DNA from: Terriglobia bacterium
Lineage (GTDB): Bacteria; Acidobacteriota; Terriglobia; 20CM-2-55-15
Direction: 5' to 3'
DNA length: 64,000 nucleotides
Assembly (NCBI GenBank): GCA_963664115.2
Contig: CAXWPJ010000009.1
Span: 256,001-320,000 of the forward strand
The number at the start of each line of letters is the position of its first letter. The first letter of the stretch is position 1. The notes under the pieces are model-generated. The model did not search any database and was not told the DNA's origin. It was given only the letters and a program-made list of their open reading frames with translations. The position numbers and the translations under genes are program-made. Below, one piece after another: positions 13,765-31,191 of the stretch.

Positions 13765-13792
13765 TGTCCACGATAATGTACACTAATGACTT

Positions 13793-14146: not shown

Positions 14147-14196
14147 CTGGAAATGACTGGCAATGACTGGAAATGACTGGCAATGCAGGACAATGA
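14134..14196 (+). repeat. Tandem 10-bp repeat TGACTGG(C/A)AA x5 plus one degenerate unit, spanning the nuoA stop
   Basis: TGACTGGCAA TGACTGGAAA TGACTGGCAA TGACTGGAAA TGACTGGCAA TGCAGGACAA TGA. Confidence 0.92.
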
Positions 14197-14219
14197 TCCC
14201 GCAATTCTGTAAATAAATC

Positions 14220-14723: not shown

Positions 14724-15301
14724 ATACCACATCTTTGATCGAATCCCTCACGGACCGCTTTCCCGCTGCGGTGACCTCGTCCCATGCCTACCGGGGTGAC
14801 GCAACACTTATTGTTCGTCCGAAGAGCCTCGTCGACGTGGCGCGGTTTCTCAAGGAGGACCCGGCCTTAAAAATGAATTACCTCATGGACCTGACTGCCG
14901 TCGACTACTCCGCATTCGGGAAACACCCCACGCCGGCCTTTTTCACTTCTTCGGGAGTGACGGTGAAGCCGTCTTCCGAGATTCCGGATGAAGAACCGTG
15001 GCCCGGCCCTCCGGACGAAGGGCGGTTTGCGGTCGTGTACCACTTCTTCTCGACCACCCACAAACATCGGCTACGACTGGTTGTCCCGGTAGAGGAGAGT
15101 GTGGCTCAGGTGGATTCGCTGACCGCGTTGTGGCCGGGCGCCGACTGGCTTGAACGCGAGGTCTGGGACATGTTCGGGATCGGTTTTACGGGACATCCCG
15201 ACTTGAAGCGGATTCTCATGTACGAAGGGTTCGAGGGTCACCCGCTACGGAAGGACTATCCCGTCAAAAAGCGTCAGCCGCTGATCGGACCGACCAACTA
15301 A
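14720..15301 (+). CDS. nuoC: NADH-quinone oxidoreductase subunit C
   Basis: DLTAVDY, WLEREVWDMFGIGFTGHPDLKRILMYEGFEGHPLRKDYP. Confidence 0.95.
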   Translation: MNTTSLIESLTDRFPAAVTSSHAYRGDATLIVRPKSLVDVARFLKEDPALKMNYLMDLTAVDYSAFGKHPTPAFFTSSGVTVKPSSEIPDEEPWPGPPDEGRFAVVYHFFSTTHKHRLRLVVPVEESVAQVDSLTALWPGADWLEREVWDMFGIGFTGHPDLKRILMYEGFEGHPLRKDYPVKKRQPLIGPTN

Positions 15302-15310
15302 CAGCGTTCT

Positions 15311-16693
15311 ATGGAAAAGAACAGCCCATCGCCGGAGACGGCGCCGACACCCCGGGGCGACCCGGCAGAACTCGAAACGCGGGACATGCTCATCAACGTG
15401 GGTCCCGCTCATCCCGCCATGCACGGGATCATCCGGATCGTAGCTAAGCTCGACGGGGAACAGATCGAGGATGCCGAAGTAGAGATCGGCTACCTTCACC
15501 GTGGTTTTGAAAAGATGGCTGAAACGGTCGACTATAACGGCGTCATGCCTTACACCGACCGGCTCAACTATGTCTCGCCGCTCATCAACAATATGGGCTA
15601 TTGCATGGCTGTGGAAAAGCTCCTTGGGATCTCGGTCCCGGAGCGCTGCCACTACGTTCGGGTCATTCTCTCCGAGATCTCGAGGCTCTCGGATCACCTG
15701 ACCTGCGTCGGTGCAACCGCCATGGAGTTGGGGGCCTTCAGCGTGTTTCTGTACATGATCAAGGCCCGGGAGTACCTGTGGGAGTTGGTGGAGAAGGTCA
15801 CCGGAGCCCGGTTGACAGTCAGCTATTGCCGCGTGGGCGGTGTCAAAGCGGACCTTCCCGATGACTTCGCCGAACCTTGCCGCAAGGCCTTTGAGGAAAC
15901 CCGCAAGGTCCTCGCTGAGGCGGATGGGCTCCTCACCCGCAATCGCATTTTCACCGACCGTATGACAGGGACAGGAGTGCTCTCCGTCGACGACGCCATA
16001 GGCTACGGAATCACCGGCCCCTTCCTTCGTGCGAGCGGCGCGGACTACGACGTGCGCAAAGACTGCCCCTACGCCGTCTACGACCGGATACCATTCGACG
16101 TGCCAGTGGGTAGCAAAGGCGACAACATGGATCGCTATCTGGTACGCATGGAGGAAATGCAACAGTCCATGCGGATCGTGGAAACAGCGCTTGCCGACAT
16201 ACCGCCCGGCCCCGTCATGGTCAATCCTGAGACGGGGCGCCCCATCCCGGCCGCCGATATGGTAGACCTGGCCAAAGTGGGCGACATCAGAGCCATTTCA
16301 GGCAGGCCCGCCGTCGTCGATCCGACACTCGAGGGGGCCAGTCGGGCCGAATATCCGTCTATTGCTGCGGATGAGAAACGCGTTTTTCTACCTGCTAAAG
16401 AGGATACTTACGGCAACATCGAAGGGCTCATGAACCACTTCAAGCTGGTCATGTTGGGCCACGGCCTGCGCCCCCCAAAAGGGGAAGTCTATTTCCCGGT
16501 GGAAGGCGCCAACGGAGAACTCGGGTTCTACGTAGTGAGCGACGGAGAGGGACGTCCCTACCGGGTCCGGGTCCGCCCGCCCTGCTTCGCTATCATGTCG
16601 GCCCTGCCCCATCTCCTTGTCGGGGGCATGATGGCCGATATGGTCCCCACCTTTGGGTCCGTGAACATGATAGGCGGGGAACTCGACCGGTGA
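15311..16693 (+). CDS. nuoD: NADH-quinone oxidoreductase subunit D
   Basis: NVGPAHPAMHG, GYLHRGFEK, DRLNY, C-terminal GELDR; no NiFe CxxC motifs. Confidence 0.95.
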   Translation: MEKNSPSPETAPTPRGDPAELETRDMLINVGPAHPAMHGIIRIVAKLDGEQIEDAEVEIGYLHRGFEKMAETVDYNGVMPYTDRLNYVSPLINNMGYCMAVEKLLGISVPERCHYVRVILSEISRLSDHLTCVGATAMELGAFSVFLYMIKAREYLWELVEKVTGARLTVSYCRVGGVKADLPDDFAEPCRKAFEETRKVLAEADGLLTRNRIFTDRMTGTGVLSVDDAIGYGITGPFLRASGADYDVRKDCPYAVYDRIPFDVPVGSKGDNMDRYLVRMEEMQQSMRIVETALADIPPGPVMVNPETGRPIPAADMVDLAKVGDIRAISGRPAVVDPTLEGASRAEYPSIAADEKRVFLPAKEDTYGNIEGLMNHFKLVMLGHGLRPPKGEVYFPVEGANGELGFYVVSDGEGRPYRVRVRPPCFAIMSALPHLLVGGMMADMVPTFGSVNMIGGELDR

Positions 16694-18486
16694 CGCTCAA
16701 GGAAATGGAAGACGCGGCGGAGGAAATCCTCCGACGCTATGAGTACCCGAAGGCGGCGATGCTGCCTGTCCTGTGGCTCGTACAGCAGAACCAGGGCTAC
16801 ATCTCACCTGAGGCAGAAGCTTGGGTGGGCCACCTTCTTGGAGTGTCTATCGCCCACGTGCGCGAGGTAGTCTCCTTTTACAATATGTTCCATACCCAGC
16901 CCGTCGGACGGCGGGAACTTCGGGTCTGCACGAGTCTGCCATGCCGCCTCCGCGGAGGGCACGATGTGTTGGAACGCATCAAGGACGGATTAAAGATCAG
17001 CCCGGGTGAGACCACGCCCGGCCAGGAGGTGACGCTCACCGAGGTCGAATGCTTGTGTGCTTGCGAGATGGCGCCCATGGCCCAGCTCGACGAACGCTTT
17101 GTCGGCCCTCTTGACGGTGGGGCCGTAGCCACCCTCATCGAGGACGCTTTGAGCGAACCCGGGAGCGGGGAGTCGACCCCGGAGCCCGACCCCTACATTT
17201 GCACGGATGGGCCGGTTCTCTCCACGCGCTTCAACGATCCGGAGGGGACCTGGTTCGAAACTTACGTCGCCGATGACGGATACGCCGCCTCCCGGCGAGT
17301 GCTCACCTCGATGACGCCGAGGGAGGTGATCGACGAGGTCGCCAAGGCCAAGCTCCGCGGTCTCGGCGGGGCGGGTTTTCCGGCCAGCCGAAAGTGGTCC
17401 TTCATACCCAAGGATTCGACCGAGCCCAAGTACCTCGTAGTCAACGCAGACGAGGGCGAACCCGGGACTTTCAAGGACCGTTACATTCTGGAAAGGGACC
17501 CGCACGCCCTGATCGAGGGCATGATCATCGCAGCCTATGCGATCGGCAGTCATAAGGCCTACGTCTACATTCGGGGCGAGTATTTCAGGTCCGCCAAACG
17601 TTTACAACGCGCCCTGGACGAGGCCTATAACACGAATTGGCTGGGCAAGAACATTCAGGGGACAGGCTTTGACCTGGACGTGGTCATCCACCGGGGCGCC
17701 GGCGCCTACATTTGTGGAGAAGAGACTGCGCTCCTGACGTCGCTCGAGGGCGGCAAAGGCTTTCCCAAGATCAAACCCCCTTTTCCGGCTATTTCGGGCC
17801 TCTTCAAATGCCCCACGATCGTCAACAATGTGGAAACCCTGGCCTGTGTCCCTTTTATCCTGCGCAACGGAGCCGAGCGCTTTGCCGAAATAGGTTCCGA
17901 GACCCAGGGTGGAACACGCCTCTTCTGTGTGAGCGGGCACGTGGTCCGGCCCGGCGTTTACGAGACGTCGGTCAGCATCACCCTGCGGGAACTGATCGAG
18001 CAGCATGCCGGGGGCGTACGCGATGGCAAGAAGCTTAAGGCTGTCATTCCCGGGGGGATCTCAGCCAAGATTCTCAGGGCTGACGAGATCGATGTGGGCA
18101 TGGATTTCGACTCGCTCAGGGGGGCCGGAACCATGGCTGGATCCGGGGGCGTAATCGTCATGGATGAAACCACCTCCATGGTCGAGGCGCTCGAGTCCGC
18201 GGCCCGGTTCTTCGCTGACGAGTCCTGCGGACAGTGTTCCCCCTGCCGGGAGGGGACAGGCTGGGTGCATCGCATCGTCGACCGCATCACCGAAGGGCAG
18301 GGACGTGTCGAGGATCTGGACGACCTTCTCGCTATTGCCGGCGATATGGAAGGCAACACTATCTGCGTTTTCGCGGACGCGGCGGCCTGGCCAGTCCAGT
18401 CCTACATCATGAAATTCAGGGACGAGTTCGAGGATTACATCCGTACCGGCCAGCGGGTCGGGGGAAAGGAAGCTGCGCATGCCTAA
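16690..18486 (+). CDS. nuoEF: Fused NuoE-NuoF (2Fe-2S N1a domain plus FMN/NADH domain)
   Basis: CTSLPC...ECLCACEMAP followed by GLGGAGFP, NADEGEPGTFKDR, GAGAYICGEETALL, ESCGQCSPCREG, TICVFADAA. Confidence 0.92.
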   Translation: MTLKEMEDAAEEILRRYEYPKAAMLPVLWLVQQNQGYISPEAEAWVGHLLGVSIAHVREVVSFYNMFHTQPVGRRELRVCTSLPCRLRGGHDVLERIKDGLKISPGETTPGQEVTLTEVECLCACEMAPMAQLDERFVGPLDGGAVATLIEDALSEPGSGESTPEPDPYICTDGPVLSTRFNDPEGTWFETYVADDGYAASRRVLTSMTPREVIDEVAKAKLRGLGGAGFPASRKWSFIPKDSTEPKYLVVNADEGEPGTFKDRYILERDPHALIEGMIIAAYAIGSHKAYVYIRGEYFRSAKRLQRALDEAYNTNWLGKNIQGTGFDLDVVIHRGAGAYICGEETALLTSLEGGKGFPKIKPPFPAISGLFKCPTIVNNVETLACVPFILRNGAERFAEIGSETQGGTRLFCVSGHVVRPGVYETSVSITLRELIEQHAGGVRDGKKLKAVIPGGISAKILRADEIDVGMDFDSLRGAGTMAGSGGVIVMDETTSMVEALESAARFFADESCGQCSPCREGTGWVHRIVDRITEGQGRVEDLDDLLAIAGDMEGNTICVFADAAAWPVQSYIMKFRDEFEDYIRTGQRVGGKEAAHA

Positions 18487-20131
18487 GCTAAGCATTGACG
18501 GCCGCGAGGTGAGCGTCGATCAGGGAACCACGGTCATCCAGGCGGCGGAGACGCTGGGGATTTTCGTTCCGCGCTACTGCTACCACCCCGGGCTCTCTAT
18601 CGCGGGCAACTGCCGCATCTGCCTCGTGGAAGTGGAGAAATCCCCCAAGCTCCAGATCGCATGCAACACTCCTGCGACCGAGGGGATGGTTGTTCACACA
18701 AAGAGCGACACCGCCCAGGACGGACGTCGCTCGGTACTGGAGTTCCTCCTGGCCAATCACCCGCTCGACTGCCCGGTTTGCGACCAGTCCGGTGAGTGCG
18801 ACTTACAGAATTTCTACCTGGACTTCGGCCTCTACAATCCGCGCTTCAGGGAGCGTAAAGTCAAGAAAAAGAAAGCTGTGACGCTGGGCCCGTATGTGAT
18901 GCTGGACCAGGAGCGCTGCATCCTCTGTTCCCGGTGCGTGCGCTTCACGGACGAGATCACCGAGACCGGAGAGTTCGGCATCTTCAATCGCGGAGACCGC
19001 TCCGAGCTGGGGCTGTACCCTGGCAAGGAACTCGACAATCGGTATTCGACCAACGTGGTGGACATCTGCCCCGTCGGTGCGCTGACCGAGCGGAAGTTCC
19101 GTTTCAAGACGCGGGTCTGGTACCTCTCCAGCGCCCCGACCGTCTGCAACGGTTGCAGTCAGGGCTGCAACATGGATTTGCATTACGTTCTGGACCGCCC
19201 TCACCTGAACGACGGCGCGCGGCTGCTGCGTGTCAAGCCACGATACAACCCGGATGTAAACCAATGGTGGTTGTGCGATGAAGGGCGCTATGGCCTCGAT
19301 TGGATCGACCAGGCTCGGCTCCGGAAGGTACGCGGGCCGTCGGGGGACGGGGCCGAGGGCGCAGATGCTCAGAATGCCACAAATACAACGGATACGACAT
19401 GGGACACGGCCCTTCGAACAATCTCAGCAGCTCTCTCGGTCCTGCCCAAGGGACGGATCGGGGTAATTGCCTCAGCCCGACTCACGATCGAAGAGCTGTT
19501 TCTGATCCGGGAGATTTTCCAGCGCGGCCTCGGCGCCCAGGTCAGTGCCTCTGTTCCAGAAATGCCAGGCTCTTCCGACGATTTCCTCATTAAGGCGGAT
19601 AAGAACCCCAACACCATGGGGGCGGAGCTGCTGGGACTATCCGGTCCGAACGCGCCGGACGCAGGACAGATCCTGGACGAGGCACTCGCCGGGAACCTTG
19701 ACGCCCTGTGGGTTATGGGGCACGACCTTGTCGCACTCTTCGGTGAAGAGAAGGCCCGACAACTCCGAGACAAGGTGGGTCTCTTCGTCTTCTCCGGAAC
19801 GAACGAAAACCGAACGGTTCCCTTGGCCCATTGGGCCTTGCCGAGCGCGGCCTATGTGGAAAAAGACGGGACCTTCGTCAACTGCCACGGACGCGTCCAG
19901 CGAATCGGCCAGGCGTTTCCTCCGCTTGAGGACTCCCGTGAGGACTGGCGCATTCTCCTGGAATTGGCCCGGCTGCTAATGCTCGAACTCGACTGGCACG
20001 AACCCCAGGACATCTTCGCGGCAGTGGCCTCCACCGAGGCGCCTTTCGCGGGAATGAGCTACGAGACGATAGGAGATCAGGGGGCTGGGGTCCGGCCAAC
20101 CGAGCCCGCTGAAGAGGTATCCGTCACGTGA
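18479..20131 (+). CDS. nuoG: NADH-quinone oxidoreductase subunit G (short, 550 aa)
   Basis: CYHPGLSIAGNCRIC, HPLDCPVCDQSGECDLQ, RCILCSRCVRF, CNGCSQGC...CDEGR (N7-type cluster). Confidence 0.92.
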   Translation: MPKLSIDGREVSVDQGTTVIQAAETLGIFVPRYCYHPGLSIAGNCRICLVEVEKSPKLQIACNTPATEGMVVHTKSDTAQDGRRSVLEFLLANHPLDCPVCDQSGECDLQNFYLDFGLYNPRFRERKVKKKKAVTLGPYVMLDQERCILCSRCVRFTDEITETGEFGIFNRGDRSELGLYPGKELDNRYSTNVVDICPVGALTERKFRFKTRVWYLSSAPTVCNGCSQGCNMDLHYVLDRPHLNDGARLLRVKPRYNPDVNQWWLCDEGRYGLDWIDQARLRKVRGPSGDGAEGADAQNATNTTDTTWDTALRTISAALSVLPKGRIGVIASARLTIEELFLIREIFQRGLGAQVSASVPEMPGSSDDFLIKADKNPNTMGAELLGLSGPNAPDAGQILDEALAGNLDALWVMGHDLVALFGEEKARQLRDKVGLFVFSGTNENRTVPLAHWALPSAAYVEKDGTFVNCHGRVQRIGQAFPPLEDSREDWRILLELARLLMLELDWHEPQDIFAAVASTEAPFAGMSYETIGDQGAGVRPTEPAEEVSVT

Positions 20132-21219
20132 TAGAAGTTCTGATCATCAAAATTACACTGGCGGGAATCGTTTTCTTCACGGTCTTGAACTTCGCAGGGT
20201 TTCATACCTGGGCGGAGCGGAAACAGTCGGCTCTGATCCAGGATAGAATCGGGGCCAACCGTGCGGATATTCTCGGCTTTAGGATGCTGGGACTCTTTCA
20301 CGGCATCGCCGACGCGATCAAGTTGTTCACCAAGGAGGACATCGTCCCGACGGGAGCAGACAGGACACTCCATACGCTGGCCCCATTCTTTTCGGTGTTC
20401 TTCGCCCTCGTCGCGTTCGCAGTGATTCCCTTCGGGGACACATTGATTCTCGGGGACAGGGTCATTGAACTCCAGGTCGCAACGTTTGACGCCGCGCTCC
20501 TCTACGTTTTCGCCATGCTCTCCCTCGGAGTCTACGGCGTGATCCTCGCGGGCTTTGCCTCGCCCAACAACTACGCAATCATGGGAAGCCTCAGGGCCAC
20601 CGCACAGATGATCTCCTATGAAATCGCACTGGGAGTCTCTGTTGTTGGAGTGATCATGGTTTACGGGACCATGGATCTGTCGGAACTCGTGCGGGCTCAG
20701 GGGCAGATGATCGGCGGCTGGATTCCTTTCTGGGGCATCGTCGCCCAGCCCGTGGCCTTTGTCGTATTTGTGACCGCGGCACTGGCCGAAACCAAGCGGA
20801 TGCCCTTTGATATGCCGGAAGGGGAATCAGAGATCATCGGGTACTTTGTGGAGTACAGCGGCATGAAGTTCGGGATGTTCTTCCTCACGGACTTCCTAGA
20901 GACCATCATGGTGGCATGCTTGTCGACCACACTCTTTTTCGGCGGGTGGCAGGTACCCTTCCTGTTGCCGGACGGGTTCCACTTCCCCTGGGGAGCGGAG
21001 ATACTCATGCCCAATTGGCTCTACGCCCTGCTGGGTGTGGTGAGCTTTTCGACCAAGGTCGTGGTTTTCTGTTGGATCTTCATGCAGCTTCGCTGGACCC
21101 TGCCACGATTCCGTTATGATCAGCTCATGAAACTGGGCTGGCGAGGGCTGTTCCCGATCGCGGTGGCCAATATTGTGGTCACGGCCGGCGTGCTGATGTT
21201 TTTCGGAGAGGGGTTCTAA
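20128..21219 (+). CDS. nuoH: NADH-quinone oxidoreductase subunit H
   Basis: ERKQSALIQDRIGANR, ADAIKLFTKED, QMISYE, PFDMPEGESE, WTLPRFRYDQLM. Confidence 0.95.
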   Translation: MIEVLIIKITLAGIVFFTVLNFAGFHTWAERKQSALIQDRIGANRADILGFRMLGLFHGIADAIKLFTKEDIVPTGADRTLHTLAPFFSVFFALVAFAVIPFGDTLILGDRVIELQVATFDAALLYVFAMLSLGVYGVILAGFASPNNYAIMGSLRATAQMISYEIALGVSVVGVIMVYGTMDLSELVRAQGQMIGGWIPFWGIVAQPVAFVVFVTAALAETKRMPFDMPEGESEIIGYFVEYSGMKFGMFFLTDFLETIMVACLSTTLFFGGWQVPFLLPDGFHFPWGAEILMPNWLYALLGVVSFSTKVVVFCWIFMQLRWTLPRFRYDQLMKLGWRGLFPIAVANIVVTAGVLMFFGEGF

Positions 21220-21878
21220 TGGCCGTAAGAGTTGTCTCAAGGCCCGAGTTGACTTTCTGGGAGAAGCTCTACATCCCGCAGATCGTCTCCGGCTTCAGGA
21301 TCACGTCCAGACACTTCTTCCGAAACCTCTTTCTCCATACGGCCCACAAACTGGGCCTGTTCAAACACCTTGCTGCCTCCGCCACCATACAGTATCCCGA
21401 AGAACTCCGGCCGCTGATGTCACGCTACCGAAGCCGCCACCGGCTGACCGTGCGCGACGACAACACACCACGCTGCGTCGGATGTATGCTGTGTGAAACG
21501 GTCTGCCCGGCCCACTGCATTACGATCGTGGCCGGGGAACACCCCGACCCCAATGTCGAGAAATATCCGATCCGCTTCGACATCGATCTGGGGGTGTGCG
21601 TCTATTGTGGTTACTGCGTCGAGGTATGCCCTGAGGATGCGATCCGGATGGACACGGGAATTCTTGATCTGGCGGCTTACTCGAGGGAGGCCATGCAGTT
21701 GGACATCCACGAACTCATGGACCCAAAGCTGCACAAACCCATCCCCCAGTGCGACCTCGATTTCCCGCACAAGTGCGAGGTGAGCGGGGGCGAGATGAAG
21801 GGAAGCTGGGAGGGATTGGTGGAACATCGGCCAGCGGACTCACCACAGGTCCCGGCAGAGTCGGCAAAGCAGGGATAA
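21219..21878 (+). CDS. nuoI: NADH-quinone oxidoreductase subunit I
   Basis: TIQYPEE, CVGCMLCETVCP and CVYCGYCVEVCP (two 4Fe-4S motifs). Confidence 0.95.
   Translation: MAVRVVSRPELTFWEKLYIPQIVSGFRITSRHFFRNLFLHTAHKLGLFKHLAASATIQYPEELRPLMSRYRSRHRLTVRDDNTPRCVGCMLCETVCPAHCITIVAGEHPDPNVEKYPIRFDIDLGVCVYCGYCVEVCPEDAIRMDTGILDLAAYSREAMQLDIHELMDPKLHKPIPQCDLDFPHKCEVSGGEMKGSWEGLVEHRPADSPQVPAESAKQG
21306..21811 (+). repeat. Direct repeat copy 1 (~506 bp of nuoI)
   Basis: Aligns ungapped to 28037-28542 (offset 6731) with about 6 substitutions by eye. Confidence 0.95.
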
Positions 21879-22116
21879 AGGCCACCCCAGTATTCGTTTG
21901 ACACCCCGGACTTTTCGGCCGTTCGATCCCGGACCTCGCTCGGCCAACGCTGGCGGCTTCAGTTTACGCCGCGCGCTCGTATTCCCCCGTTATGGTTCCG
22001 GAAATTCCCAGACATCTACCTCATCTTCATGGCGACGGACTTCTTATTTCGCTTATCCGCCTATCTCTCCTACCTCGCAGAGATTGCTTATTTCGCCTAT
22101 ACTCACAATTTCGCGT

Positions 22117-24594
22117 ATGAAATCACTACATTTTAAATTGCACATCTTTTCTCTCTGCGCTCTGGCAATAGCTCAACCCTTGCTCGAAGTGATTTCCAGG
22201 AATGCCGAACTGTTGGTAGCTCGCCAAGCCGGCGTAGTTGACTTGGCAATTCTTGTCTTTGCGCTTTCGATTCTCGTTCCGTTGCTATTGGTGTTGCCCG
22301 GTCAAATAGCTCGAGTTTACGGAACATTACTCAGTGATAGATTTTTCCTTGGCACAATCGTTTTTCTTGTCAGTTTGCTGGCCCTTTTAAGCTTGAAAGA
22401 AATTACTGATGGTTCAAGTGCATATTTGGTTTTGATGGCCTTGTTGCTCGGGGTTCTCTTCGCGTCTATGTATACCCGATTCGAAGCCCTGCCTATGATT
22501 TGTGATTTCCTTGCTCCGGCAATTCTATTAGTACCGATACTGTTTGTGTTCAATTCAAACATCTCTAGAGTTGTCGCAAATTCTGATGGGACACAGTTTT
22601 CTTTTTCGGGTGCTCGAAACAATATACCTGTTGTCATGGTTGTCTTTGATGAACTGCCATTGTTGTCTCTGCTTGATGAAACTGCCAATATTGACAGCGT
22701 CAGATACCCAAATTTCGCTACCCTGGCGTCTGAAAGCCACTGGTTTCGCAATGCGAGATCCTTGAGCGGATCGACCACAATTGCAATTCCTGCGATTGTA
22801 AGTGGTGAGACCAAGCCGGACGCACTGCCTATCGCCGTAGACTATCCGAGGAATTTATTCACGCTGCTAAATGCAAGTCACCAACTTAATGTAACGGAAC
22901 AGGTCACCTCGCTGTGTCCTCAGTCTGTTTGTGACAGTACCGCTATCGGGACTCCACAGGCTTTGCAACAAAGGCTAGAAGGGTTTTTTACCGATCTGGC
23001 CGTGGTCTATCTTCATGTTCTATTACCTGAGGATTTGACGGCTAGTCTTCCGACCATATCCCAATCATGGGGAAACTTCGTCAACAGGGGCGTCAGCGAA
23101 ACAGGCCCGTCGACTGAGACCGACAATTCTGAATCTCGAGATGAAAAATACGCGAGTTTTCTGAATGGGATAGTGGCGTCTGAGAAACCGAGCCTAAATT
23201 TTCACCACACTCTCTTACCGCATGTTGCCTGGGAATATCTGCCTTCGGGCAAATTCTATTCTATTTATGGGAGTGATGTGCCTGGACTGAATTTTGTCAA
23301 TGAAATATGGGGAGACGATCCCGCTCTTGTTGAACAGGGCTATCAACGACATTTGCTGCAAGTTGGCTTTGTGGACAAATTGTTAGGAGATCTGATAGCG
23401 AAATTAAAGTCTGAGAATCTCTACGATGAGTCTCTGATCGTAATTGTTTCAGACCATGGCGTTAATTTCTGGCCAGGAGAATCCCGTCGCGATCTATTTG
23501 ATCCGAGATTTACCCTGGACACATTGGGCATCACTTTGCTGATCAAACAGCCCCGGCAATCGGTCGGGATTGTGCATGACGGCGAGGTGTCGTCGCTAGA
23601 TATCCTGCCGACTATAGCGAATAGTTTGGGAATTCAGACTGATGATCAATTTCAAGGGCGCGATCTTTTCGGTTCAGATGCTCAGTCTACAACCAGCGCT
23701 GATAATCCCTATTTGAATTACGCGAGTTTGCAGCGCAAATTGAAGCTTTTCGGTTCAGGAGAGCTTTCTACTCTTTACGGTCTGGGCGATTTTTCTCAGT
23801 TGTTGAACTTGAGAAAAAGTGATTTCGATTTGGAAGTATCAAACAGCTTAACTTATACAATCGATCAACAAAGCAATTTGTCTGATGTCAGCTTGAGCGA
23901 TTTGATGATACCCGCGCGCGTAACTGGCGAACTTATGGGTGCTTTGATTGACGAAACCGATATGGATCTCGCCGTAATGTTGAATCGCAAACTAATCGCC
24001 GTAAGCAAACCTTACTTCAGTGGCTCTGAGTTCAGATTTTCAATAATGCTGCCTGAAAATGAGATTGAAAACGGGTTTAACGAATTTGAGTTATTTAGAA
24101 TTCATGCTGAGGCCAATGAAACTTTCCGGCTGGAGCAAGTTCGAAACCTGAGAGGGGATTTCTATCGATATACCACCGAAGGTAACTTGGAGAGTCTTTC
24201 TTCTGTCGACAATGAAAGTAGCGAAATTGCGTTGATACCAGGACGGGTCAGAGGTTTCGTAGACAGCATTAGCTTAAAGCAAGGATTTCTGGAAATAATC
24301 GGTTGGGCTGCAAATATTCAAAACGATGAACCCGCAGAATTTTTGATTATCGATATTAACGGCCAGTTGGTCTATTTGGGCACGCCAGTACTTCAACGCA
24401 GCGATGTCGCTACGGCATTCGATGCGCCTTCAATTGAAGAGTCCGGCTATCTGCTCGATGTTCGGGCGACGAGGTTTGCTGACTTAGAACCATTGAGCGT
24501 GAAGGTAATCGGAGTCAGTGGAAATGAAGCAAGTTTATTAGAGTCAAATTTCGATATTAGCGAAAGAATCGAAGAGCTGGCTAGGAGCCAATGA
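22117..24594 (+). CDS. Membrane-anchored sulfatase-like/alkaline-phosphatase-superfamily hydrolase or transferase (NoeB-like)
   Basis: Several N-terminal TM helices, VVMVVFDELP, YPNFATLA, HHTLLPHVAW, IVIVSDHG, SSLDILPTI; start taken at ATG 22117. Confidence 0.75.
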   Translation: MKSLHFKLHIFSLCALAIAQPLLEVISRNAELLVARQAGVVDLAILVFALSILVPLLLVLPGQIARVYGTLLSDRFFLGTIVFLVSLLALLSLKEITDGSSAYLVLMALLLGVLFASMYTRFEALPMICDFLAPAILLVPILFVFNSNISRVVANSDGTQFSFSGARNNIPVVMVVFDELPLLSLLDETANIDSVRYPNFATLASESHWFRNARSLSGSTTIAIPAIVSGETKPDALPIAVDYPRNLFTLLNASHQLNVTEQVTSLCPQSVCDSTAIGTPQALQQRLEGFFTDLAVVYLHVLLPEDLTASLPTISQSWGNFVNRGVSETGPSTETDNSESRDEKYASFLNGIVASEKPSLNFHHTLLPHVAWEYLPSGKFYSIYGSDVPGLNFVNEIWGDDPALVEQGYQRHLLQVGFVDKLLGDLIAKLKSENLYDESLIVIVSDHGVNFWPGESRRDLFDPRFTLDTLGITLLIKQPRQSVGIVHDGEVSSLDILPTIANSLGIQTDDQFQGRDLFGSDAQSTTSADNPYLNYASLQRKLKLFGSGELSTLYGLGDFSQLLNLRKSDFDLEVSNSLTYTIDQQSNLSDVSLSDLMIPARVTGELMGALIDETDMDLAVMLNRKLIAVSKPYFSGSEFRFSIMLPENEIENGFNEFELFRIHAEANETFRLEQVRNLRGDFYRYTTEGNLESLSSVDNESSEIALIPGRVRGFVDSISLKQGFLEIIGWAANIQNDEPAEFLIIDINGQLVYLGTPVLQRSDVATAFDAPSIEESGYLLDVRATRFADLEPLSVKVIGVSGNEASLLESNFDISERIEELARSQ

Positions 24595-24933
24595 GTTCGG
24601 CTCAACGAAGGTTTTAAAAATAGCTACTTAGAAAGTTTTGCATTCGAATGCTGGACGCAGGAATAGACGCCTCCGTCGAATGTGAATGTGGTCGCCCCTC
24701 CCCGGTGATCACAAGTAGGGACTTCCCGACAGCGCAGTCCCAATCTTCATGACCGCGAACATCGAAGAGTTTTAACTTATGGATTCCCTAAGAATGGACT
24801 ATGCTTTATTCCAGATCGGGCGGATTTGGAAGGAGTGTATCGTGAAGCGCTTTGGGTCGGGCATAGAAGTGGCCCCCAAAATTAGGACAGCGTTATAAGG
24901 TGGACTCTGCATAGATGAGAGGACCTAACGACG

Positions 24934-25215
24934 ATGGCGAAACGACGGAATTTTTCAGCAGATTTCAAAGCGAAGGTAGCGCTGGCCGCGATGCGTGGCG
25001 ACGGCACGATGGCCGAATTGGCGGCGCGGTACAAGATCCATCCGAACATGATCACGAAGTGGAAGCGTGATGCGCTTGATAGCGTTAAAGAAGCATTCCA
25101 GCGAGGCCGGGATCCATCGGCCCGGAACCACGAGGACGAGATCAAAGACCTGCAGGCCAAGATCGGTGAACTGGTCGTGGAACGGGATTTTTTAGCACGA
25201 GCCTTCAATCGATGA
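24934..25215 (+). CDS. IS3 transposase OrfA (HTH)
   Basis: RRNFSADFKAKVALAA...ELAARYKIHPNMITKWK...LQAKIGELVVERDFL. Confidence 0.92.
   Translation: MAKRRNFSADFKAKVALAAMRGDGTMAELAARYKIHPNMITKWKRDALDSVKEAFQRGRDPSARNHEDEIKDLQAKIGELVVERDFLARAFNR
25188..25194 (+). other. -1 programmed frameshift slippery site T TTT TTA
   Basis: In the OrfA frame GAT TTT TTA; a -1 shift enters the OrfB frame. Confidence 0.7.
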
Positions 25216-26060
25216 GCTTGGGTCGAAGGCGCGAGGTGGTCGAACCGGGCCATGAGCAGCTCAGTGTGGTCCGGCAATGCGACTTGATCGGGTTGAGCCG
25301 TTCGAGTTGGTACTATCGGCCACGGGGTGAGAGTGATCGCAATCTGGACCTGATGCGCGTGATCGACGAGGCGTATCTGAAGATGCCCTGGTATGGGTCC
25401 AGGCAGATGACGCGTCATCTGAAACGTCTCGGCTACGATGTGGGCCGGAAGCGGGTACGCCGACTAATGCGGTTGATGGGGCTGCGCTCGGTGGCACCGC
25501 AGACGTCCCGGAGAAACCCGGCTCATCCGGTGTACCCATATCTACTCAACGACATTGCCGTGGAGCGGGCGAATCAAGCGTGGTCTACCGACGTGACGTA
25601 TATCCCGATGGCGCACGGATTCTTATATCTGGTCGCGATCATGGACTGGCATACGCGGAAGGTGTTGTCCTGGCGGCTGTCCAACACCCAGGACACGACG
25701 TTTTGCCTTGAAGCCCTCGACGAGGCGATCGAGGAATACGGCAGTCCGGAAATCTTCAACACCGATCAGGGCAGCCAGTTCACCAGCAAGGCCTGGACGG
25801 ACCGACTTAAAGAACGAGGTATCCGGATCTCCATGGACGGCAAGGGGCAATGGATCGACAACGTTTTCATCGAACGCCTATGGCGCTCGATCAAATACGA
25901 ATGCGTTTATCTAAACGCCTTCAGTGACTTCAAAGATGCCCGGCACCACATAGGTGTCTGGATGAACTATTACAATAACGACCGCCCGCATTCCAAACTC
26001 GACGATCTCACGCCGAGCGAAGCCTACGCGGGAACACGGCCACTGACCTCGGCAGCATAA
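25212..26060 (+). CDS. IS3 transposase OrfB (DDE integrase core)
   Basis: WSTDVTY, FNTDQGSQFT, DNVFIERLWRSIKYE, YNNDRPH. Confidence 0.95.
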   Translation: MSLGRRREVVEPGHEQLSVVRQCDLIGLSRSSWYYRPRGESDRNLDLMRVIDEAYLKMPWYGSRQMTRHLKRLGYDVGRKRVRRLMRLMGLRSVAPQTSRRNPAHPVYPYLLNDIAVERANQAWSTDVTYIPMAHGFLYLVAIMDWHTRKVLSWRLSNTQDTTFCLEALDEAIEEYGSPEIFNTDQGSQFTSKAWTDRLKERGIRISMDGKGQWIDNVFIERLWRSIKYECVYLNAFSDFKDARHHIGVWMNYYNNDRPHSKLDDLTPSEAYAGTRPLTSAA

Positions 26061-26326
26061 ACATGAACCGCGGAATCCACCTTAAATTGGCTGCCAAGCT
26101 GTCCAACGTATGGGGTCCACCTCTCATCGCAACCCTGACAGGCATCGCCTTTCAATTGTAAGTTGGGAGCAGCCCGCACACGCCTATCTTGATCCGGGAG
26201 CCGGCAGTCTCCTTCTCCAGGTGCTGATGGGAGGCTTGGCCGGGGCGGCCGTTGTGGTCAAGGTGTATTGGAACAGCCTGATGGCGAGATTTGGACGCGG
26301 TGGAGACACCCGGAGAGCCGATCCGG

Positions 26327-27750
26327 GTGAGTCAGACACCTAGATTGGAACCCACACGAATAGAAGGCTCCTTCCGAGATCCCGCTGGACAGATCTTCCA
26401 AAAAGACGGCCACATTTACCGGACCATTAACGCCGTTGCCGTGGATGACTTTGTCTTCGTTCAGAACACCAATTTCTACCCGAAAGCCGTCAGCGAAAAG
26501 CGTCTCATCTCTGCTGAACAAGTTCCGCCCGAAATCCTGAACAGCCGCCAGCCAGAGGCCTCCCATGTGATCGAGCACCCACGCCTGCCTTTCGTGTCCT
26601 ATCCCTATGAGTGGACGTTCCAAATGCTCAAAACTGCCGCACTGTTCCACCTCGATTTCCATCTTGATGCCCTGAGAGACGGCATAACGCTTATCGATGC
26701 CTCTGCATACAACGTGCAATTCATAGGTGCCTCGCCAATCTTTATCGACACGCTGTCCTTACGGAAATATAAACCGGGCTCCCTCTGGGCTGGTTACAAA
26801 CAGTTCTGCGACCAGTTTCTCAATCCCCTCCTCCTGAGGTCCTACGTTGGACTGCACCACAACGCCTGGTATCGGGGAAACCAGGAAGGCATCAACGCCG
26901 GGGAGATCCGGAAATTATTGCCCGCCCGGCGTAAGCTGTCTCGAAGGGTGCTCACACACGTCACGCTCCAGGATTCGCTTCAGAAAACCACGCGTAAAGG
27001 TTCCGGCCCGAATCTGGGAGCCTTGCAGGAGGTGGAACTCCCACTGGCAACATTCAGAAAGACGCTCACTGACCTGAAGGATTGGATTAAGGGACTCGAA
27101 CCGAAAGAGGCGGGACGCACCGTATGGAGCGACTACGCAAACTTCAACAGTTATGCGCCACAAGAAGAAGCCCTCAAGCACGAATTCGTAAACGACTTCG
27201 TCCGACGCAGGAAACTCGTACAGGTCTGGGACCTTGGCTGCAATAGTGGCGAATATGCAGCAGTCGCTCTCAATGCCGGGGCAGACTATGTCGTCGGGTT
27301 CGATGCGGATCACGGCGCGTTGGATTTGGCATTCCGCCGTTCCCAAGAGGAACGGTTACGCTTTCTTCCTCTCTTTCTCGACATCGCGAATCCTCCGCCC
27401 TCTCAGGGGTGGGCGCAACAGGAACGGTACGGACTCAGGGAACGCACCAGCGCGGACGGCGTGATCGCCCTGGCGCTGATCCATCACATATCGATCGGAG
27501 GCACAACGTACCTCTTGGCGATGCGCTTGCCTGGTTGGTCGGCCTGGGACCCAGAGGCGTAATCGAATTCGTGCCCAAAGAGGATCCCATGGTCCAGGAG
27601 TTACTTCGGTTCCGGGAGGATATCTTTCCGAATTACACACTCGAAAACTTTCTTAGAAAGCTTCAAACACTTGCATCCGTCGAACGGACGGAACCGAGTT
27701 CATCGACCGGTCGTTTGCTGGTGGAGTATTCGCGCAAGCCACAAGCGTAA
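26327..27750 (+). pseudogene. NoeA-like class I SAM-dependent methyltransferase, frameshifted near 27497-27502
   Basis: GSFRDP, SYPYEW, DASAYNVQF, QFCDQFLNPL, WDLGCNSGEY, LALIHHISIG, then in the other frame HNVPLG...IEFVPKEDPMVQ. Confidence 0.8.
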
Positions 27751-27871
27751 ACGGCAAACGAGATGGAACCGCGCTGTAAATCGTCCATCGCTACGCCGAC
27801 GGCTTCTCAAAAGACCTGGAGCCTGCAAAACATAACCCACAAATCATCGTTTATCACTGGCAGCCTGCACG

Positions 27872-28036
27872 TGTACGTCGTCAGAGTAATTCGGACAGAA
27901 GGGCTGTCTCTCCAAGAGACGGCTTTTAAGTTATACCACTTCAGTCCTCAAGTTTGCGATCCGACGCTCGGCCAGCGTTCGCTGCTTGATTCTCTCCCGA
28001 CGGGAGAGGATTTCCTCCTGATGGCCAAAGAACACT
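27872..28036 (-). mobile_element. Remnant of a second IS: transposase C-terminus plus right terminal IR
   Basis: Minus strand EVFFGHQEEILSRRERIKQRTLAERRIANLRTEVV* resembles IS3/IS481-type transposase tails; followed by ...CTGTCCGAATTACTCTGACGACGTACA end. Confidence 0.65.
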
Positions 28037-28573
28037 TCCAGACACTTCTTCCGAAACCTCTTTCTCCATACGGCCCACAAGCTGGGCCTGTTCAAATACC
28101 TTGCTGCCTCCGCCACCATCCAGTATCCCGAAGAACTCCGGCCGCTGATGTCACGCTACCGAAGCCGCCACCGGCTGACCGTGCGCGACGACAACACACC
28201 ACGCTGCGTCGGATGTATGCTGTGTGAAACGGTCTGCCCGGCCCACTGCATTACGATCGTGGCCGGGGAACACCCCGACCCCAATGTCGAGAAATATCCG
28301 ATCCGCTTCGACATCGATCTGGGGATGTGCGTCTATTGTGGTTACTGCGTCGAGGTATGCCCTGAGGATGCGATCCGGATGGACACGGGAATTCTCGATC
28401 TGGCGGCTTACTCGAGGGAGGCCATGCAGTTGGACATCCACGAACTCATGGACCCGAAGCTGCACAAACCCATCCCCCAGTGCGACCTCGATTTCCCGCA
28501 CAAGTGCGAGGTGAGCGGGGGCGAGATGAAGGGAAGCTGGGAAGAGGTCGACAAATCACAGACAGCGAACTGA
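28037..28573 (+). pseudogene. nuoI: 5'-truncated second copy of nuoI (direct repeat copy 2) with an alternative C-terminus
   Basis: Homology starts at 28037, in-frame TGA at 28019; both 4Fe-4S motifs kept; ends WEEVDKSQTAN*. Confidence 0.9.
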
Positions 28574-28775
28574 CCACCCCCGCTCAGCAGACTCGCCAAA
28601 GCTGAGATAAAGCTCACCCGTCATATCCACTGTGATTCTGTTTATCTGTGCGGTTGTTGACTCGTGCCAAGAACTCAATCTTCTGACAGGCGAATGGACT
28701 CACTCACGCAGAAATCTGGCAATAGGCGGCGTGTTGGTGCAGTATGCAGGTATTACGAACTTGGAGGATAGATCA

Positions 28776-29735
28776 GTGATTCGTCTAATTCGAGTATCCC
28801 GGCCAGCGGTTCGTCACGCAGTGTGGGTCGCGCTTTGCGCTTCGGCCCTCTTCGCCACGTTTTCATCTTTCGGAAATGCCAGCCAGATTCAATCCCTATC
28901 AGACGGTGTTTACTCCACCCCGCAGGCGGAGCGGGCGCAGCTGATTTACCAGGCCCAGTGCGCGATGTGTCATGGCAATGCGCTCCAAGGCGCCAGCGAG
29001 GGATCGCCGCTGACGGGGGAGGGTTTCCTCTCGAACTGGAGTGGACAACCGTTATCGGATCTCGTCGACAAGATCGAGAACACGATGCCCTTCGGCGCGC
29101 CCGGAAGCCTTAGCCGGCAGCAAGCAACCGACCTCACGGCTTACATTCTCCAGGCCGGTGAATTCCCGGCCGGTCAAGCGGATCTCGCCGAAGATGCACT
29201 GACCCGAATCGCGCTTCCCACGGTTAGCCCATCTCCGGGAAACGACACGCGTTTGTCTGGCACGTCTCTCCCTCCGCCCGAAGGAAACCTCGCCGAGTTG
29301 ATGCGGGGCATCGCGTTCCCCAATTCAAATATCATATTTAACCTTCAGGTCAAGAATCCCGATGACGAGCCGGCTAAGGCGATGCCGATACCTTTTGACT
29401 ACGTCGAATGGGGGACCACTATTTATCCCGGGTGGCTGCAGATCGATCAGGCCGCGGTTGCTCTCACCGAAACGGCACCGCTCCTCTTAACACCAGGACG
29501 ACAGTGTCAGAACGGCAGGCCGGTTCCGGTGGATCGCGCTGATTGGCAGCAGTACGTGGCGGACTTGGTGGAAGTCGGGCAGGTCCTTTATCAGGCGTCG
29601 AAAGCGAGAGACTATCAAGCGCTGGTGGACTTGAGCGAGGACCTCAACGATGCGTGCGGGAACTGCCACGCGGTTTATCGCGATATGGGCGGCAGCGAGG
29701 GCAGTGGAGCAAACCGCTGCATCGTTGAACCATGA
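28776..29735 (+). CDS. Exported di-heme c-type cytochrome
   Basis: GGAGGA RBS plus GTG 28776, signal peptide, GVYSTPQAERA..YQAQCAMCHG and C-terminal CGNCH. Confidence 0.85.
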   Translation: MIRLIRVSRPAVRHAVWVALCASALFATFSSFGNASQIQSLSDGVYSTPQAERAQLIYQAQCAMCHGNALQGASEGSPLTGEGFLSNWSGQPLSDLVDKIENTMPFGAPGSLSRQQATDLTAYILQAGEFPAGQADLAEDALTRIALPTVSPSPGNDTRLSGTSLPPPEGNLAELMRGIAFPNSNIIFNLQVKNPDDEPAKAMPIPFDYVEWGTTIYPGWLQIDQAAVALTETAPLLLTPGRQCQNGRPVPVDRADWQQYVADLVEVGQVLYQASKARDYQALVDLSEDLNDACGNCHAVYRDMGGSEGSGANRCIVEP

Positions 29736-29784
29736 GTCGCAATCGGGGCGACCAGCCGTGGCATGATCGGGCGTGACTTTCCGT

Positions 29785-31191
29785 TCAGGGAATATCGGCG
29801 ATCCACTCCCCGGCTTGCATCACCTTGAAGATTTTCTGCGTGTTTCGGATATCGAGGGTCGGATCGGCGTCGAGGAGCACGAGATCGGCGGCCTTGCCTT
29901 TCTCCAGAGTTCCCGTCTCTCGACTTCTCCCCATGACCGCGGCAGCGTTTTGCGTGGCGGCGACGAGAACATCCAGAGGCCGCATGCCCGCTTCAGCCAT
30001 GAGCTCCATCTCTCTGTGGAGCGCGGGACCGTGGAGCGTCCCGATGTTGCCGGCGTCGCTACCTGCAGCGATCCGGACACCGGCGGCGTAAAGACGTTGC
30101 AGATTGAGAAATTCAGTCGGACGCATGCTGAGTAGCGTGGCCGGGGGCACACCCCCGGCGATCGAATCGGGAGAAATTCTCGACAGCTCTTCCCATGACC
30201 CGATGGCTTCCGGATCTCCCAGACGCTGTTCGATCTCGCTGAGACTCACCGCCTGCCCGAAGACTTCGTCGTAACCTTCGGTCACCAGCAGCGTGGGAAT
30301 GTAGATGAGGTCGCGCGCCTTCAGCAGAGTAATGAACGCGTCATCCACCGGCTGGTCCTCGACGCTGTGTACGAGAATGTCGGCGCCTGACTCGACCCCG
30401 GCTCTCGCTGTCGCTAACTCGGTGGCATGCACCGCAACTCGAAGCCCCAATCTGTGACTCTCAGCAATGGTGGCTTCAACCAAGGCCGCATAGTGGTCAA
30501 AATCGTCAAAGGGATGGTAGAGGAACAGGATCTTGATCAGGTCTGATCCGCGTTCTACGATCCGTTGTACGGTCTGACGGGCATCAGAAGCAGTCTCGAC
30601 AGCGATAACGGGAGGATCCGCGCTCTCCAGCTGGGGATCGGGTTCGGTCGATATCAGCGGACCGGTCACGACTATACTCGGCGCGTCCGGGGAAGCACGG
30701 TTCGCGTCCCGAAGGTCGAAAGTCCACATCGGGCCGCCCATGTCCACCACACCCGTCACACCCGACCAGAGGTAGCGGAGCAGGGTCTGGGGCAGTCGCT
30801 GCCGGGTCCTCGCAACTTCGGCGGCATAGCTTCGGACGCTTCGCAAATCCAAGAGGTCGGGCCGGGTGAACAGGCCGGCCGACTGGTCGAAATGGACGTG
30901 AGCGTCGATCAGACCAGGAATCGCGAACTTTCCCGTGGCATCAACGACAGTTGCGCCGGGGACAACCGGGATCGTTTCTCTTCGACCGATATCGCGAATA
31001 CGCCCGTCTTCGACGACGATGGCGCCATTCTCCAATACGGGCGTTCCGGTTCCGTCGATGATCGTGACCCGATCAATCACCGTAACCGGTACTGGTAGTT
31101 GCGGGGTGGCACCGAGAGACAGGAAGAGCAACAGCGCTACCCAGCTGCGGCCGAGCAATTTCCGGCCAGTCATCATCCGGTATATCGGCAT
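29785..31191 (-). CDS. Exported amidohydrolase-family protein
   Basis: PGLIDAHVHF, VAVHAT, LVHSV, AGSDAGN, GTLEKGKAADLVLLDADP; start uncertain (31191/31176/31173). Confidence 0.88.
   Translation of the reverse strand: MPIYRMMTGRKLLGRSWVALLLFLSLGATPQLPVPVTVIDRVTIIDGTGTPVLENGAIVVEDGRIRDIGRRETIPVVPGATVVDATGKFAIPGLIDAHVHFDQSAGLFTRPDLLDLRSVRSYAAEVARTRQRLPQTLLRYLWSGVTGVVDMGGPMWTFDLRDANRASPDAPSIVVTGPLISTEPDPQLESADPPVIAVETASDARQTVQRIVERGSDLIKILFLYHPFDDFDHYAALVEATIAESHRLGLRVAVHATELATARAGVESGADILVHSVEDQPVDDAFITLLKARDLIYIPTLLVTEGYDEVFGQAVSLSEIEQRLGDPEAIGSWEELSRISPDSIAGGVPPATLLSMRPTEFLNLQRLYAAGVRIAAGSDAGNIGTLHGPALHREMELMAEAGMRPLDVLVAATQNAAAVMGRSRETGTLEKGKAADLVLLDADPTLDIRNTQKIFKVMQAGEWIADIP

What the first reader, a model, noticed from the sequence alone, without database searches (positions are those of the whole stretch)
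21306..28573. Cargo integrated into nuoI: ~506-bp direct repeats and two alternative NuoI C-termini
Seen: 21306-21811 and 28037-28542 align without gaps with about 6 substitutions (4 silent, H>Y, V>M), then diverge into tails GLVEHRPADSPQVPAESAKQG* and EVDKSQTAN*. Established: Campbell-type integration into a gene leaves a restored copy plus a displaced 3' fragment. Inference: a circular or foreign DNA carrying a nuoI fragment from a related strain recombined in without an integrase. RecA recombination between the repeats would excise 6.7 kb and swap the NuoI tail, making a respiratory gene a landing pad for surface-modification cargo.
Basis: partly seen in the sequence, partly recalled or inferred. 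Interest (0 to 1): 0.7.

Follow-up and report, generated by a model that had tools for sequence, protein, structure and literature searches.

The report
ISCR-like cargo insert anchored in nuoI
A respiratory gene in a sponge-associated bacterium carries a real 506-base partial duplicate around 6 kb of mostly broken cargo that begins exactly at the end of a rolling-circle jumping gene, so it likely arose the way resistance integrons collect genes, with the respiratory gene as the landing site, and it looks like a decaying relic, not a switch.

Summary
The repeat is real: 506 bp, 6 mismatches. The junction and doubled depth recur in runs of three studies, so it is not a misassembly. Tail B (EVDKSQTAN) plus the cytochrome gene is the native arrangement (G002). 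Empty alleles with identical NuoI bodies exist in this lineage and a sister lineage. The cargo starts exactly at two stacked ori-side ends of an IS91/ISCR-type element, and tail A's extra 12 residues are read-through into that element's ter-side DNA. The right joint is a microhomology between an IS3-type stub and nuoI codon 29. The layout copies ISCR1 complex integrons, with nuoI in place of the 3'-CS. IS91 remnants also follow nuoI in G003, G004, G048 and one metagenome organism, but nowhere else in about 0.8 Mb of downstream DNA. The cargo is largely broken, holds no transposase, and copy 2 lacks its start. Circle versus linear entry is unresolved. The scan noted orphan IS91 ends in other marine bacteria, but not this anchor. 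Verdict: new variant of a known kind.

The parts
21219..21878 (+). Full nuoI (219 aa), last gene of a permuted, fused-nuoEF complex I operon; ends in tail A
21306..21811 (+). Repeat copy 1 (nuoI codons 30-198)
21812..21916 (+). Tail A and following DNA, 84-87% like G004. Codon 208 (21840-21842, TCA) is a stop in G001, G002, G003, G048 and tail B. The DNA after it is the ter-side/promoter part of an IS91/ISCR-type element (inferred through G004, where it runs into a transposase start). The 20-mer at 21856-21875 is identical in G004 and G048.
22043..22060 (+). ori-side end of an IS91/ISCR-type element, subtype b
22060..22104 (+). 45-bp mini unit ending in the subtype-a ori end (22087-22104). The same unit is at C12:504784. 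It abuts the cargo 15 bp before the next ATG.
22120..24594 (+). Membrane-anchored alkaline-phosphatase-superfamily protein (Pfam Sulfatase; 5 predicted N-terminal helices; no CxPxR motif; best PDB match LTA primase, E 5e-6). GC 45%. Intact here, with a 1-base insertion in X8.
24842..26340 (+). Small AYLDPG membrane-peptide gene, split by the IS3 copy and frameshifted (approximate limits)
24865..26124 (+). IS3-family element (orfA 24934-25215, orfB 25212-26060), with 8 further copies at 99% or more in the genome
26291..27750 (+). Methyltransferase gene frameshifted near 27502; 90% identical to the intact paralogue at C12:458.8-460.3 kb
27763..27871 (+). 5' stub of a second sulfatase-like gene, cut by the next IS (approximate start)
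27872..28035 (-). Right-end stub of a second IS3/IS481-type element (a related 1,490-bp element is multi-copy in the genome)
28033..28035 (+). Microhomology joint (crossover inside CAC; 10 of 12 bases alike between IS parent and nuoI)
28036..28542 (+). Repeat copy 2: displaced nuoI part without promoter or start; only a 141-aa frame from Met67 (28148)
28543..28619 (+). Native tail B (stop at 28573), 84% like G002, and its decayed homologue of the tail A extension
28776..29735 (+). Cytochrome c gene, the native downstream neighbour of nuoI in G002 and in the empty alleles

Best explanation
The locus is a partial nuoI duplication around decayed cargo that begins at rolling-circle (IS91/ISCR-type) element ends, and it likely formed when a donor strain's nuoI-end-plus-cargo unit closed into a circle at a microhomology and recombined once, by RecA, into the nuoI of a strain with the native tail. 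Step 1 (shown: an IS91/ISCR-type remnant directly behind nuoI in several relatives; inferred: the same element here): the element sat just after the nuoI stop with its ter side toward the gene, and loss of the stop codon added 12 element-encoded residues (tail A). Step 2 (shown: ori end abutting cargo; inferred: transposase activity): rolling-circle activity attached the low-GC sulfatase-like gene and a paralogue of the peptide-methyltransferase-sulfatase module behind the ori end. Step 3 (shown: microhomology joint; inferred: circle): the cargo's far end, an IS3-type stub, joined nuoI codon 29. Step 4 (inferred): a single crossover in the 506-bp homology restored one full nuoI and pushed the native 3' part, tail B and the cytochrome gene 6.7 kb downstream. 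Step 5 (shown): the cargo decayed through an IS3 insertion and frameshifts, and no transposase remains. RecA could excise it again, but nothing indicates a regulated switch.
For: The ori-end motif lies 275 bp after an intact Y2/Zn transposase in this genome (best NCBIfam match ISCR clade Ia, below cut-off). It follows transposase 3' ends in 9 of 12 distinct elements examined: 4 by pattern, 5 by eye. The motif has 20 matches in 4 of 5 genus genomes and 0 in reversed controls. A profile from 9 elements not at nuoI aligns G004's DNA from a transposase start back into the last codons of tail A (76.5 bits). Remnants follow nuoI in G003 (15.1 bits), G048 (20-mer plus two transposase peptides, read by eye) and L167/L168 (one organism; 89.9 bits). 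In G002 an ori end is fused with no gap to codon 78 of a foreign nuoI fragment. A random joint would match 10 of 12 or better with P 4e-5 (post hoc). The empty-allele protein P0012 has copy-1 residues, as a circle crossing over near the 3' end predicts. No ComEC was found in G000. In E. coli, 56 of 60 comparable events gave 109-950-bp partial duplications through recircularised DNA (PMC3240628, passages). ISCR1 lies 24 bp behind sul1, between partial 3'-CS duplications (PMC6218425, PMC9376610, PMC7707992; passages).
Against: No transposase is left in the unit, and the profile does not detect the window's own tail A; the link runs through G004. The 45-bp ori unit also sits alone at C12, so it can hop without carrying DNA. 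IS801 fragments were judged mostly products of rearrangement (PMC3189936, passages). No fixed tetranucleotide follows the ori ends, and the right joint is not an ori joint. Run X12 shows tail A with all six copy-1 alleles and no second copy (depth about 3.5), which fits a linear donor better. The circle model would confine the crossover to the last 86 bp if copy 1 is wholly recipient. All four congeners carry ComEC. No IS91 remnant behind nuoI and no second nuoI piece was found in the remaining GTDB loci (72 of 74 windows negative; 0 of 80 second copies). No circle was observed.
Confidence: 0.5

Rival explanations
1. Same donor unit, linear entry: homology-facilitated illegitimate recombination. 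A linear donor piece paired in the conserved nuo operon upstream and made its second joint at the microhomology inside nuoI, displacing the native 3' end, as in rhs and T6SS effector displacement.
For: The 3-base perfect core within a 10-of-12 match fits the 3-10-bp microhomology of such joints (PMC3240628, passages). X12 has tail A with copy-1 alleles only. A 15.6-kb conserved anchor lies upstream. DprA is present, and ComEC is present in 4 of 4 congeners. PMC5361080 (passages) describes the same displaced-3'-end outcome.
Against: The empty allele P0012 carries copy-1, not copy-2, residues. G000 has no ComEC match. The route is rare and usually leaves deletions. X12's depth is too low to show absence.
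Confidence: 0.3
2. The IS91/ISCR ends are bystander scars. nuoI ends a long operon, so mobile debris collects there. One old insertion in the genus ancestor explains the remnants, and the duplication came from ordinary strain recombination alone.
For: The genome has about 20 such ends. G000, G003 and G004 are kin. The remnant is absent behind nuoI in more distant taxa. Short ori units occur without cargo.
Against: The ori end marks the exact GC and homology boundary of the cargo. The G002 ori|nuoI fusion and L167/L168 are separate lineages. G048's nuoI turns from own-genus-like to this genus-like near base 570-594 and carries the identical 20-mer (tree support low).
Confidence: 0.13
3. A maintained, reversible module: excision swaps the NuoI tail and toggles surface-modifying genes under selection.
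For: Filled and empty alleles with identical NuoI bodies exist in two lineages. The repeats are 98.8% identical, and the sulfatase-like gene is intact in G000.
Against: Three of four non-IS cargo genes are broken, and the fourth is frameshifted in X8. The tails lie beyond the conserved domain and vary freely among relatives. Depth shows no excess of tail B over the joint. The 4.1-kb empty-allele contig differs by 1.3% in neighbouring proteins, so it is another strain and not a fresh excision.
Confidence: 0.04
4. Misassembly of two strain variants.
For: No spanning read was seen. In X2 tail B has half the depth of tail A. X12 shows no second copy.
Against: The joint contig is in three studies, depth is doubled, and X9 has a 1:1 SNP bubble. 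The same protein pair or trio is on separate long contigs. The cargo is continuous with its C12 paralogue across the IS3.
Confidence: 0.03

Closest known systems
ISCR1-linked (complex) class 1 integrons
   Same: Conserved anchor gene, element directly behind its stop with the ter side toward it, ori end abutting a variable region, then a partial duplicate of the anchor. Proposed circle plus homologous recombination (PMC6218425, PMC9376610, PMC7707992; passages).
   Different: The anchor is the 3' part of a chromosomal respiratory gene, not qacEdelta1-sul1. There is no integron and no resistance gene, the transposase is missing, and the far joint is a microhomology in an IS3-type stub.
IS91/IS801/IS1294 one-ended transposition and ori-end minis
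   Same: Y2 (HUH) transposase family in the genome, ori-side ends without inverted repeats, short ori-only units, and adjacent DNA attached (PMC13181058, PMC3189936; passages).
   Different: No fixed target tetranucleotide was found. The transposases score nearer ISCR clade Ia than IS91.
Homology-facilitated illegitimate recombination and C-terminal displacement (rhs, Vibrio T6SS arrays)
   Same: Homologous anchor on one side, microhomology joint on the other, orphan 3' end pushed downstream (PMC3240628, PMC5361080; passages).
   Different: The displaced gene is a housekeeping subunit, and no toxin-immunity logic selects for the array.
Prophage integration into coding genes with a replacement 3' end (e14 and phage 21 in E. 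coli icd; recalled, not checked by a call)
   Same: A restored full gene plus a displaced 3' copy.
   Different: No integrase, no phage genes and no short att core; the repeat begins at a microhomology.

Membership tests
ISCR1-type unit | HUH Y2 transposase gene inside the unit | tested here: not met
   None in 21879-28036. An intact one is at C5, and starts or remnants follow nuoI in G003, G004, G048 and L167/L168.
ISCR1-type unit | ori end downstream of the transposase position, abutting the variable region | tested here: met
   22087-22104 and 22043-22060; the same ends follow transposase 3' ends elsewhere. Likeness to the published ISCR oriIS consensus is recalled only.
ISCR1-type unit | ter side fused just behind the anchor gene's stop | tested here: inconclusive
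   Shown for G004; for the window only through 84-87% identity to G004. The ter end itself was not delimited.
ISCR1-type unit | partial duplication of the anchor flanking the variable region | tested here: met
   506-bp nuoI repeat
ISCR1-type unit | link to a class 1 integron 3'-CS | tested here: not met
   The anchor is nuoI; no such genes among the ORFs scanned
IS91 family | target and termination tetranucleotide (CTTG/GTTC type) | tested here: not met
   The 20 ends in G000 are followed by varied tetranucleotides; the cargo begins ACAA
IS91 family | circular intermediates with an ori-ter junction | not testable with these tools
   Only contigs were served
Homology-facilitated illegitimate recombination | 3-10-bp microhomology at the illegitimate joint | tested here: met
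   CAC core within 10 of 12 bases
Homology-facilitated illegitimate recombination | left copy wholly donor, right copy wholly recipient | tested here: inconclusive
   X12 agrees weakly; P0012 disagrees
Homology-facilitated illegitimate recombination | a route for linear DNA (ComEC, DprA) | tested here: inconclusive
   DprA present; ComEC not found in G000, which is 97% complete, but present in 4 of 4 congeners
Integrase-driven island with gene-end replacement | tyrosine or serine recombinase and a short att core | tested here: not met
   No such family among the cargo ORFs
Formylglycine sulfatases | C/S-x-P-x-R motif | tested here: not met
   Absent from the 824-aa protein; weak best PDB match to LTA primase

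The most novel reading that the evidence does not exclude
In this family of Terriglobia an ISCR-type element uses the conserved 3' end of nuoI as a chromosomal counterpart of the integron 3'-CS. Units of nuoI end, element and cargo move between strains, species and at least once between genera, and home by RecA at the GxMKGSWE block, rewriting the NuoI tail and delivering different cargo each time.
Probability: 0.3. Interest if true: 0.75.

Novelty: new variant of a known kind. Interest (0 to 1): 0.5.

Why it matters
ISCR elements are known mainly from resistance plasmids, and their transposition was still undemonstrated in the papers read (PMC6218425, PMC9376610; passages). A chromosomal, antibiotic-free case with the same layout, anchored on a core respiratory gene, would show that the complex-integron route is a general way to install cargo without an integrase and without breaking the target gene. 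It also warns that variable C-terminal tails of core proteins can be read-through into mobile DNA. The copy in this window is a relic with no evident function, which caps the score.

Tried and rejected
A metagenome pattern scan for the repeat end found 0 matches. A protein scan of the same collection gave only relatives at 74-85% and none of the sister lineage. Rfam found nothing in 20000-31000, and no promoter or terminator was found at 21800-22200. My first idea, that the 27872-28036 repeat family was a dedicated att-like end, was rejected: it is an IS3/IS481-type right end. The idea that the right joint was made by the Y2 transposase was dropped, since there is no tetranucleotide rule and there is a microhomology. 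A genome-wide search found 25 low-copy direct repeats of 120 bp or more within 150 kb. I inspected 4; none was a second nuoI-like case, and 20 others were not examined. Second nuoI pieces: 0 of 80 metagenome loci (13 had 7 kb or more downstream) and 0 of 80 GTDB loci (49 had 7 kb or more). The profile missed both window copies and G048, and gave one opposite-strand 13.7-bit hit (L109) that I do not count. The genome-wide background run used filters, so it is not like for like. The NuoI protein tree and the split-gene trees had low support and are not used as proof of transfer. The BON query was translated from the wrong strand; synteny rests on the DNA alignments. Absence of cover in X12 and X14 is weak. 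Literature: none of the listings named nuoI as an insertion site in a title or abstract start, and (IS91 + Acidobacteria + sponge) returned 0 papers. PMC122325, PMC1489542 and PMC2944590 were not held. No supplements were read; they may hold the oriIS alignments.
Full report
Observation. The two stretches 21306-21811 and 28037-28542 are 506 bp with 6 mismatches: four silent, H50>Y and V126>M, plus a seventh silent difference one base upstream. Gapped similarity continues into the tails to 21887/28619. The window is G000:C9:256001-320000. Relatives are titled Terriglobia. One run laid with near-identical pieces is on record as a sponge metagenome (X14). nuoI is the last gene of a permuted complex I operon with two antiporter-like subunits up front and fused nuoEF; earlier scan notes call this the 'green' type (unchecked name).

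Not a misassembly. Of four runs laid on the right junction, three from three studies (X4, X9, X10) hold a 187-base contig bridging the IS stub and copy 2 with no difference. The repeat collapses to one unitig at about the summed depth of its flanks in X2, X8, X4 and X10, and X9 shows both SNP sets at 3.6 and 3.9. Against: no spanning record was served, X2 has tail B at half depth, and X12 (depth about 3.5) shows tail A only.

Which tail is native. G002, the nearest congener by nuo identity (90%), has one nuoI ending EKVDESQTAN followed by the cytochrome, amidohydrolase and hydantoinase genes in the window's order. Tail B is 84% like G002 and tail A is 87% like G004, while both repeat copies are 91% like G002 and 85-86% like G004. 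In the protein collection, P0012 has the same residues 2-198 as copy 1 but tail B, on a 4,136-bp contig with the cytochrome and amidohydrolase (98.7% identical). In a sister lineage, P0011 (tail A) and P0010 (tail B type) also share a body, and a decayed 49-aa tail-B fragment (P0008) shares P0011's 1,576,508-bp contig. No member of the sulfatase or methyltransferase clusters is listed on that contig, so its cargo probably differs. This rests on proteins only, and short-read collapse of the repeat cannot be excluded for the empty alleles. Five of seven differences between the copies are silent (P 0.008-0.06 under neutral change), and both amino-acid variants occur in working orthologues. The copies therefore look like two strain alleles.

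Cargo. An 824-aa membrane protein of the alkaline-phosphatase superfamily (GC 45%; no CxPxR; weak best match to LTA primase) has its nearest outside homologues at 61-63%; surface-polymer modification is a fair inference, not shown. It is followed by a 90%-identical paralogue of a peptide-methyltransferase-sulfatase module that is intact at C12 and present away from nuoI in G002, G006, G013 and G016. Here the peptide is split by an IS3 copy and frameshifted, the methyltransferase is frameshifted, and the sulfatase is cut after about 100 bp by a second IS3/IS481-type element, of which 164 bp remain. That stub joins nuoI inside CAC (28033-28035), within a 10-of-12 match; a random joint would do as well with P 4e-5, a post hoc figure.

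The missed agent. The cargo's left edge is marked by two stacked 18-base ends (22043-22060, 22087-22104). The second lies 275 bp behind an intact Y2/Zn transposase at C5, whose best NCBIfam match is ISCR clade Ia, below cut-off. One or other end follows the transposase 3' end in 9 of 12 distinct elements (4 by pattern, 5 by eye), so these are ori-side ends. In G004 a transposase start lies about 115 bp behind tail A. A profile built from nine elements not at nuoI aligns from there back into the last codons of tail A. Codon 208 is a stop in G001, G002, G003, G048 and tail B, so the extra 12 residues are read-through into element DNA (shown for G004, inferred for the window). Remnants also follow nuoI in G003, in G048 of another genus, and in L167/L168, one organism at 81% NuoI identity. 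The 20-mer from tail A occurs exactly only behind nuoI in G000, G004 and G048 among 35 genomes; one 2-mismatch hit in G043 was not followed up. G048's nuoI is most like its congener G047 in 6 of 7 windows up to base 570 (one tied) and like this genus afterwards (low tree support). In G002 an ori end is fused to codon 78 of a foreign nuoI fragment. Background: no other transposase match (E 1e-4 or better) was found in 554 kb downstream of 80 GTDB loci, none at E 1e-5 or better in 625 kb of 80 metagenome loci, 242 kb of it downstream, and there was one profile hit in G000's genome. The pattern is narrow: only 2 of 74 GTDB windows were positive, both already known.

Mechanism. The order anchor end - element (ter to ori) - cargo - partial anchor is that of ISCR1 complex integrons, where ISCR1 lies 24 bp behind sul1 (PMC6218425, passages) between partial 3'-CS duplications (PMC9376610, passages), with a proposed circle rescued by homologous recombination (PMC7707992, passages). 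IS91-family termination fails in 1-14% of events and carries adjacent DNA (PMC13181058, passages). I commit to: element behind nuoI, cargo attached at ori, circle closed at the microhomology, single crossover in nuoI (0.5). For the circle: P0012 carries copy-1 residues, G000 shows no ComEC, and E. coli gave partial duplications via circles in 56 of 60 clones (PMC3240628, passages). For a linear route (0.3): X12, ComEC in all four congeners, and the T6SS precedent (PMC5361080, passages). For bystander scars (0.13): the 45-bp unit occurs alone at C12, there is no tetranucleotide rule, and IS801 fragments were mostly ascribed to rearrangement (PMC3189936, passages). I also read passages of PMC13393415, bioRxiv 2025.01.22.634252, PMC3575428 and PMC5737581 for general features only.

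Function. Copy 2 has no start before Met67. Tails vary freely beyond the conserved domain. Joint and tail-B depths match in three runs. A regulated tail switch is unlikely (0.04).

Novelty and score. It works like an ISCR1 unit but is not a member: no transposase in the unit, no integron. The searches listed under Tried and rejected showed no report of nuoI as such an anchor. Earlier scan notes describe orphan IS91 ori ends at junctions in other marine and sponge bacteria, without a homology anchor. New variant of a known kind; interest 0.5. The homing-platform reading has probability 0.3 and interest 0.75 if true.

Noticed in passing
G000:C5:257780-281905 (L174, L175): A 24-kb block runs between tRNA-Arg(TCT) and a 42-base copy of its 3' half. 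It holds an intact ISCR-like transposase and two near-identical 141-bp ori ends 22 kb apart; the second ori end abuts the tRNA copy at the anticodon loop.
   Followed up: partly
G002:C1:1672421-1672800 (L032:8421-8837): An ori end is fused without a gap to codon 78 of a foreign nuoI 3' fragment (79-83% to known copies), followed by ankyrin-repeat and other genes, far from the nuo operon.
   Followed up: partly
window 6584-21878: Permuted complex I operon (nuoJ, K, two antiporter-like subunits, M, N, A-D, fused EF, G, H, I). A second, divergent nuoG/nuoI pair is at C9:526-528 kb, with nuoG in two pieces by tblastn.
   Followed up: partly
G000 whole genome: No ComEC match by Pfam or by tblastn with G002's protein, and G002's surrounding genes are not matched either, although all four congeners have it and DprA is kept.
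   Followed up: partly
G000:C12:458.6-462.9 kb (L034): A conserved three-gene module (AY[LI]DPG membrane peptide, methyltransferase, sulfatase-like protein) lies beside cysNDH and sulfite reductase genes; it is also in G002 (same neighbours, methyltransferase split by IS), G006, G013 and G016.
   Followed up: partly
G000:C6:342343-342566 and 344322-344545: A 224-bp direct repeat (99%) duplicates the 5' end and upstream DNA of a LysR-like regulator around 2 kb of DNA.
   Followed up: no
G000, many contigs: About 40 matches to the right end of the IS3/IS481-type element, many of them stubs next to kinase C-terminal fragments (ELKERVPVP-like), and about 20 orphan ori ends.
   Followed up: no
L239 / L031 (G021 nuoI): nuoI appears frameshifted near codon 110-120 in G021; an assembly error or a pseudogene.
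   Followed up: no
window 22983 in run X8: A one-base insertion breaks the sulfatase-like gene in that strain; split proteins P0257 and P0258 agree.
   Followed up: partly
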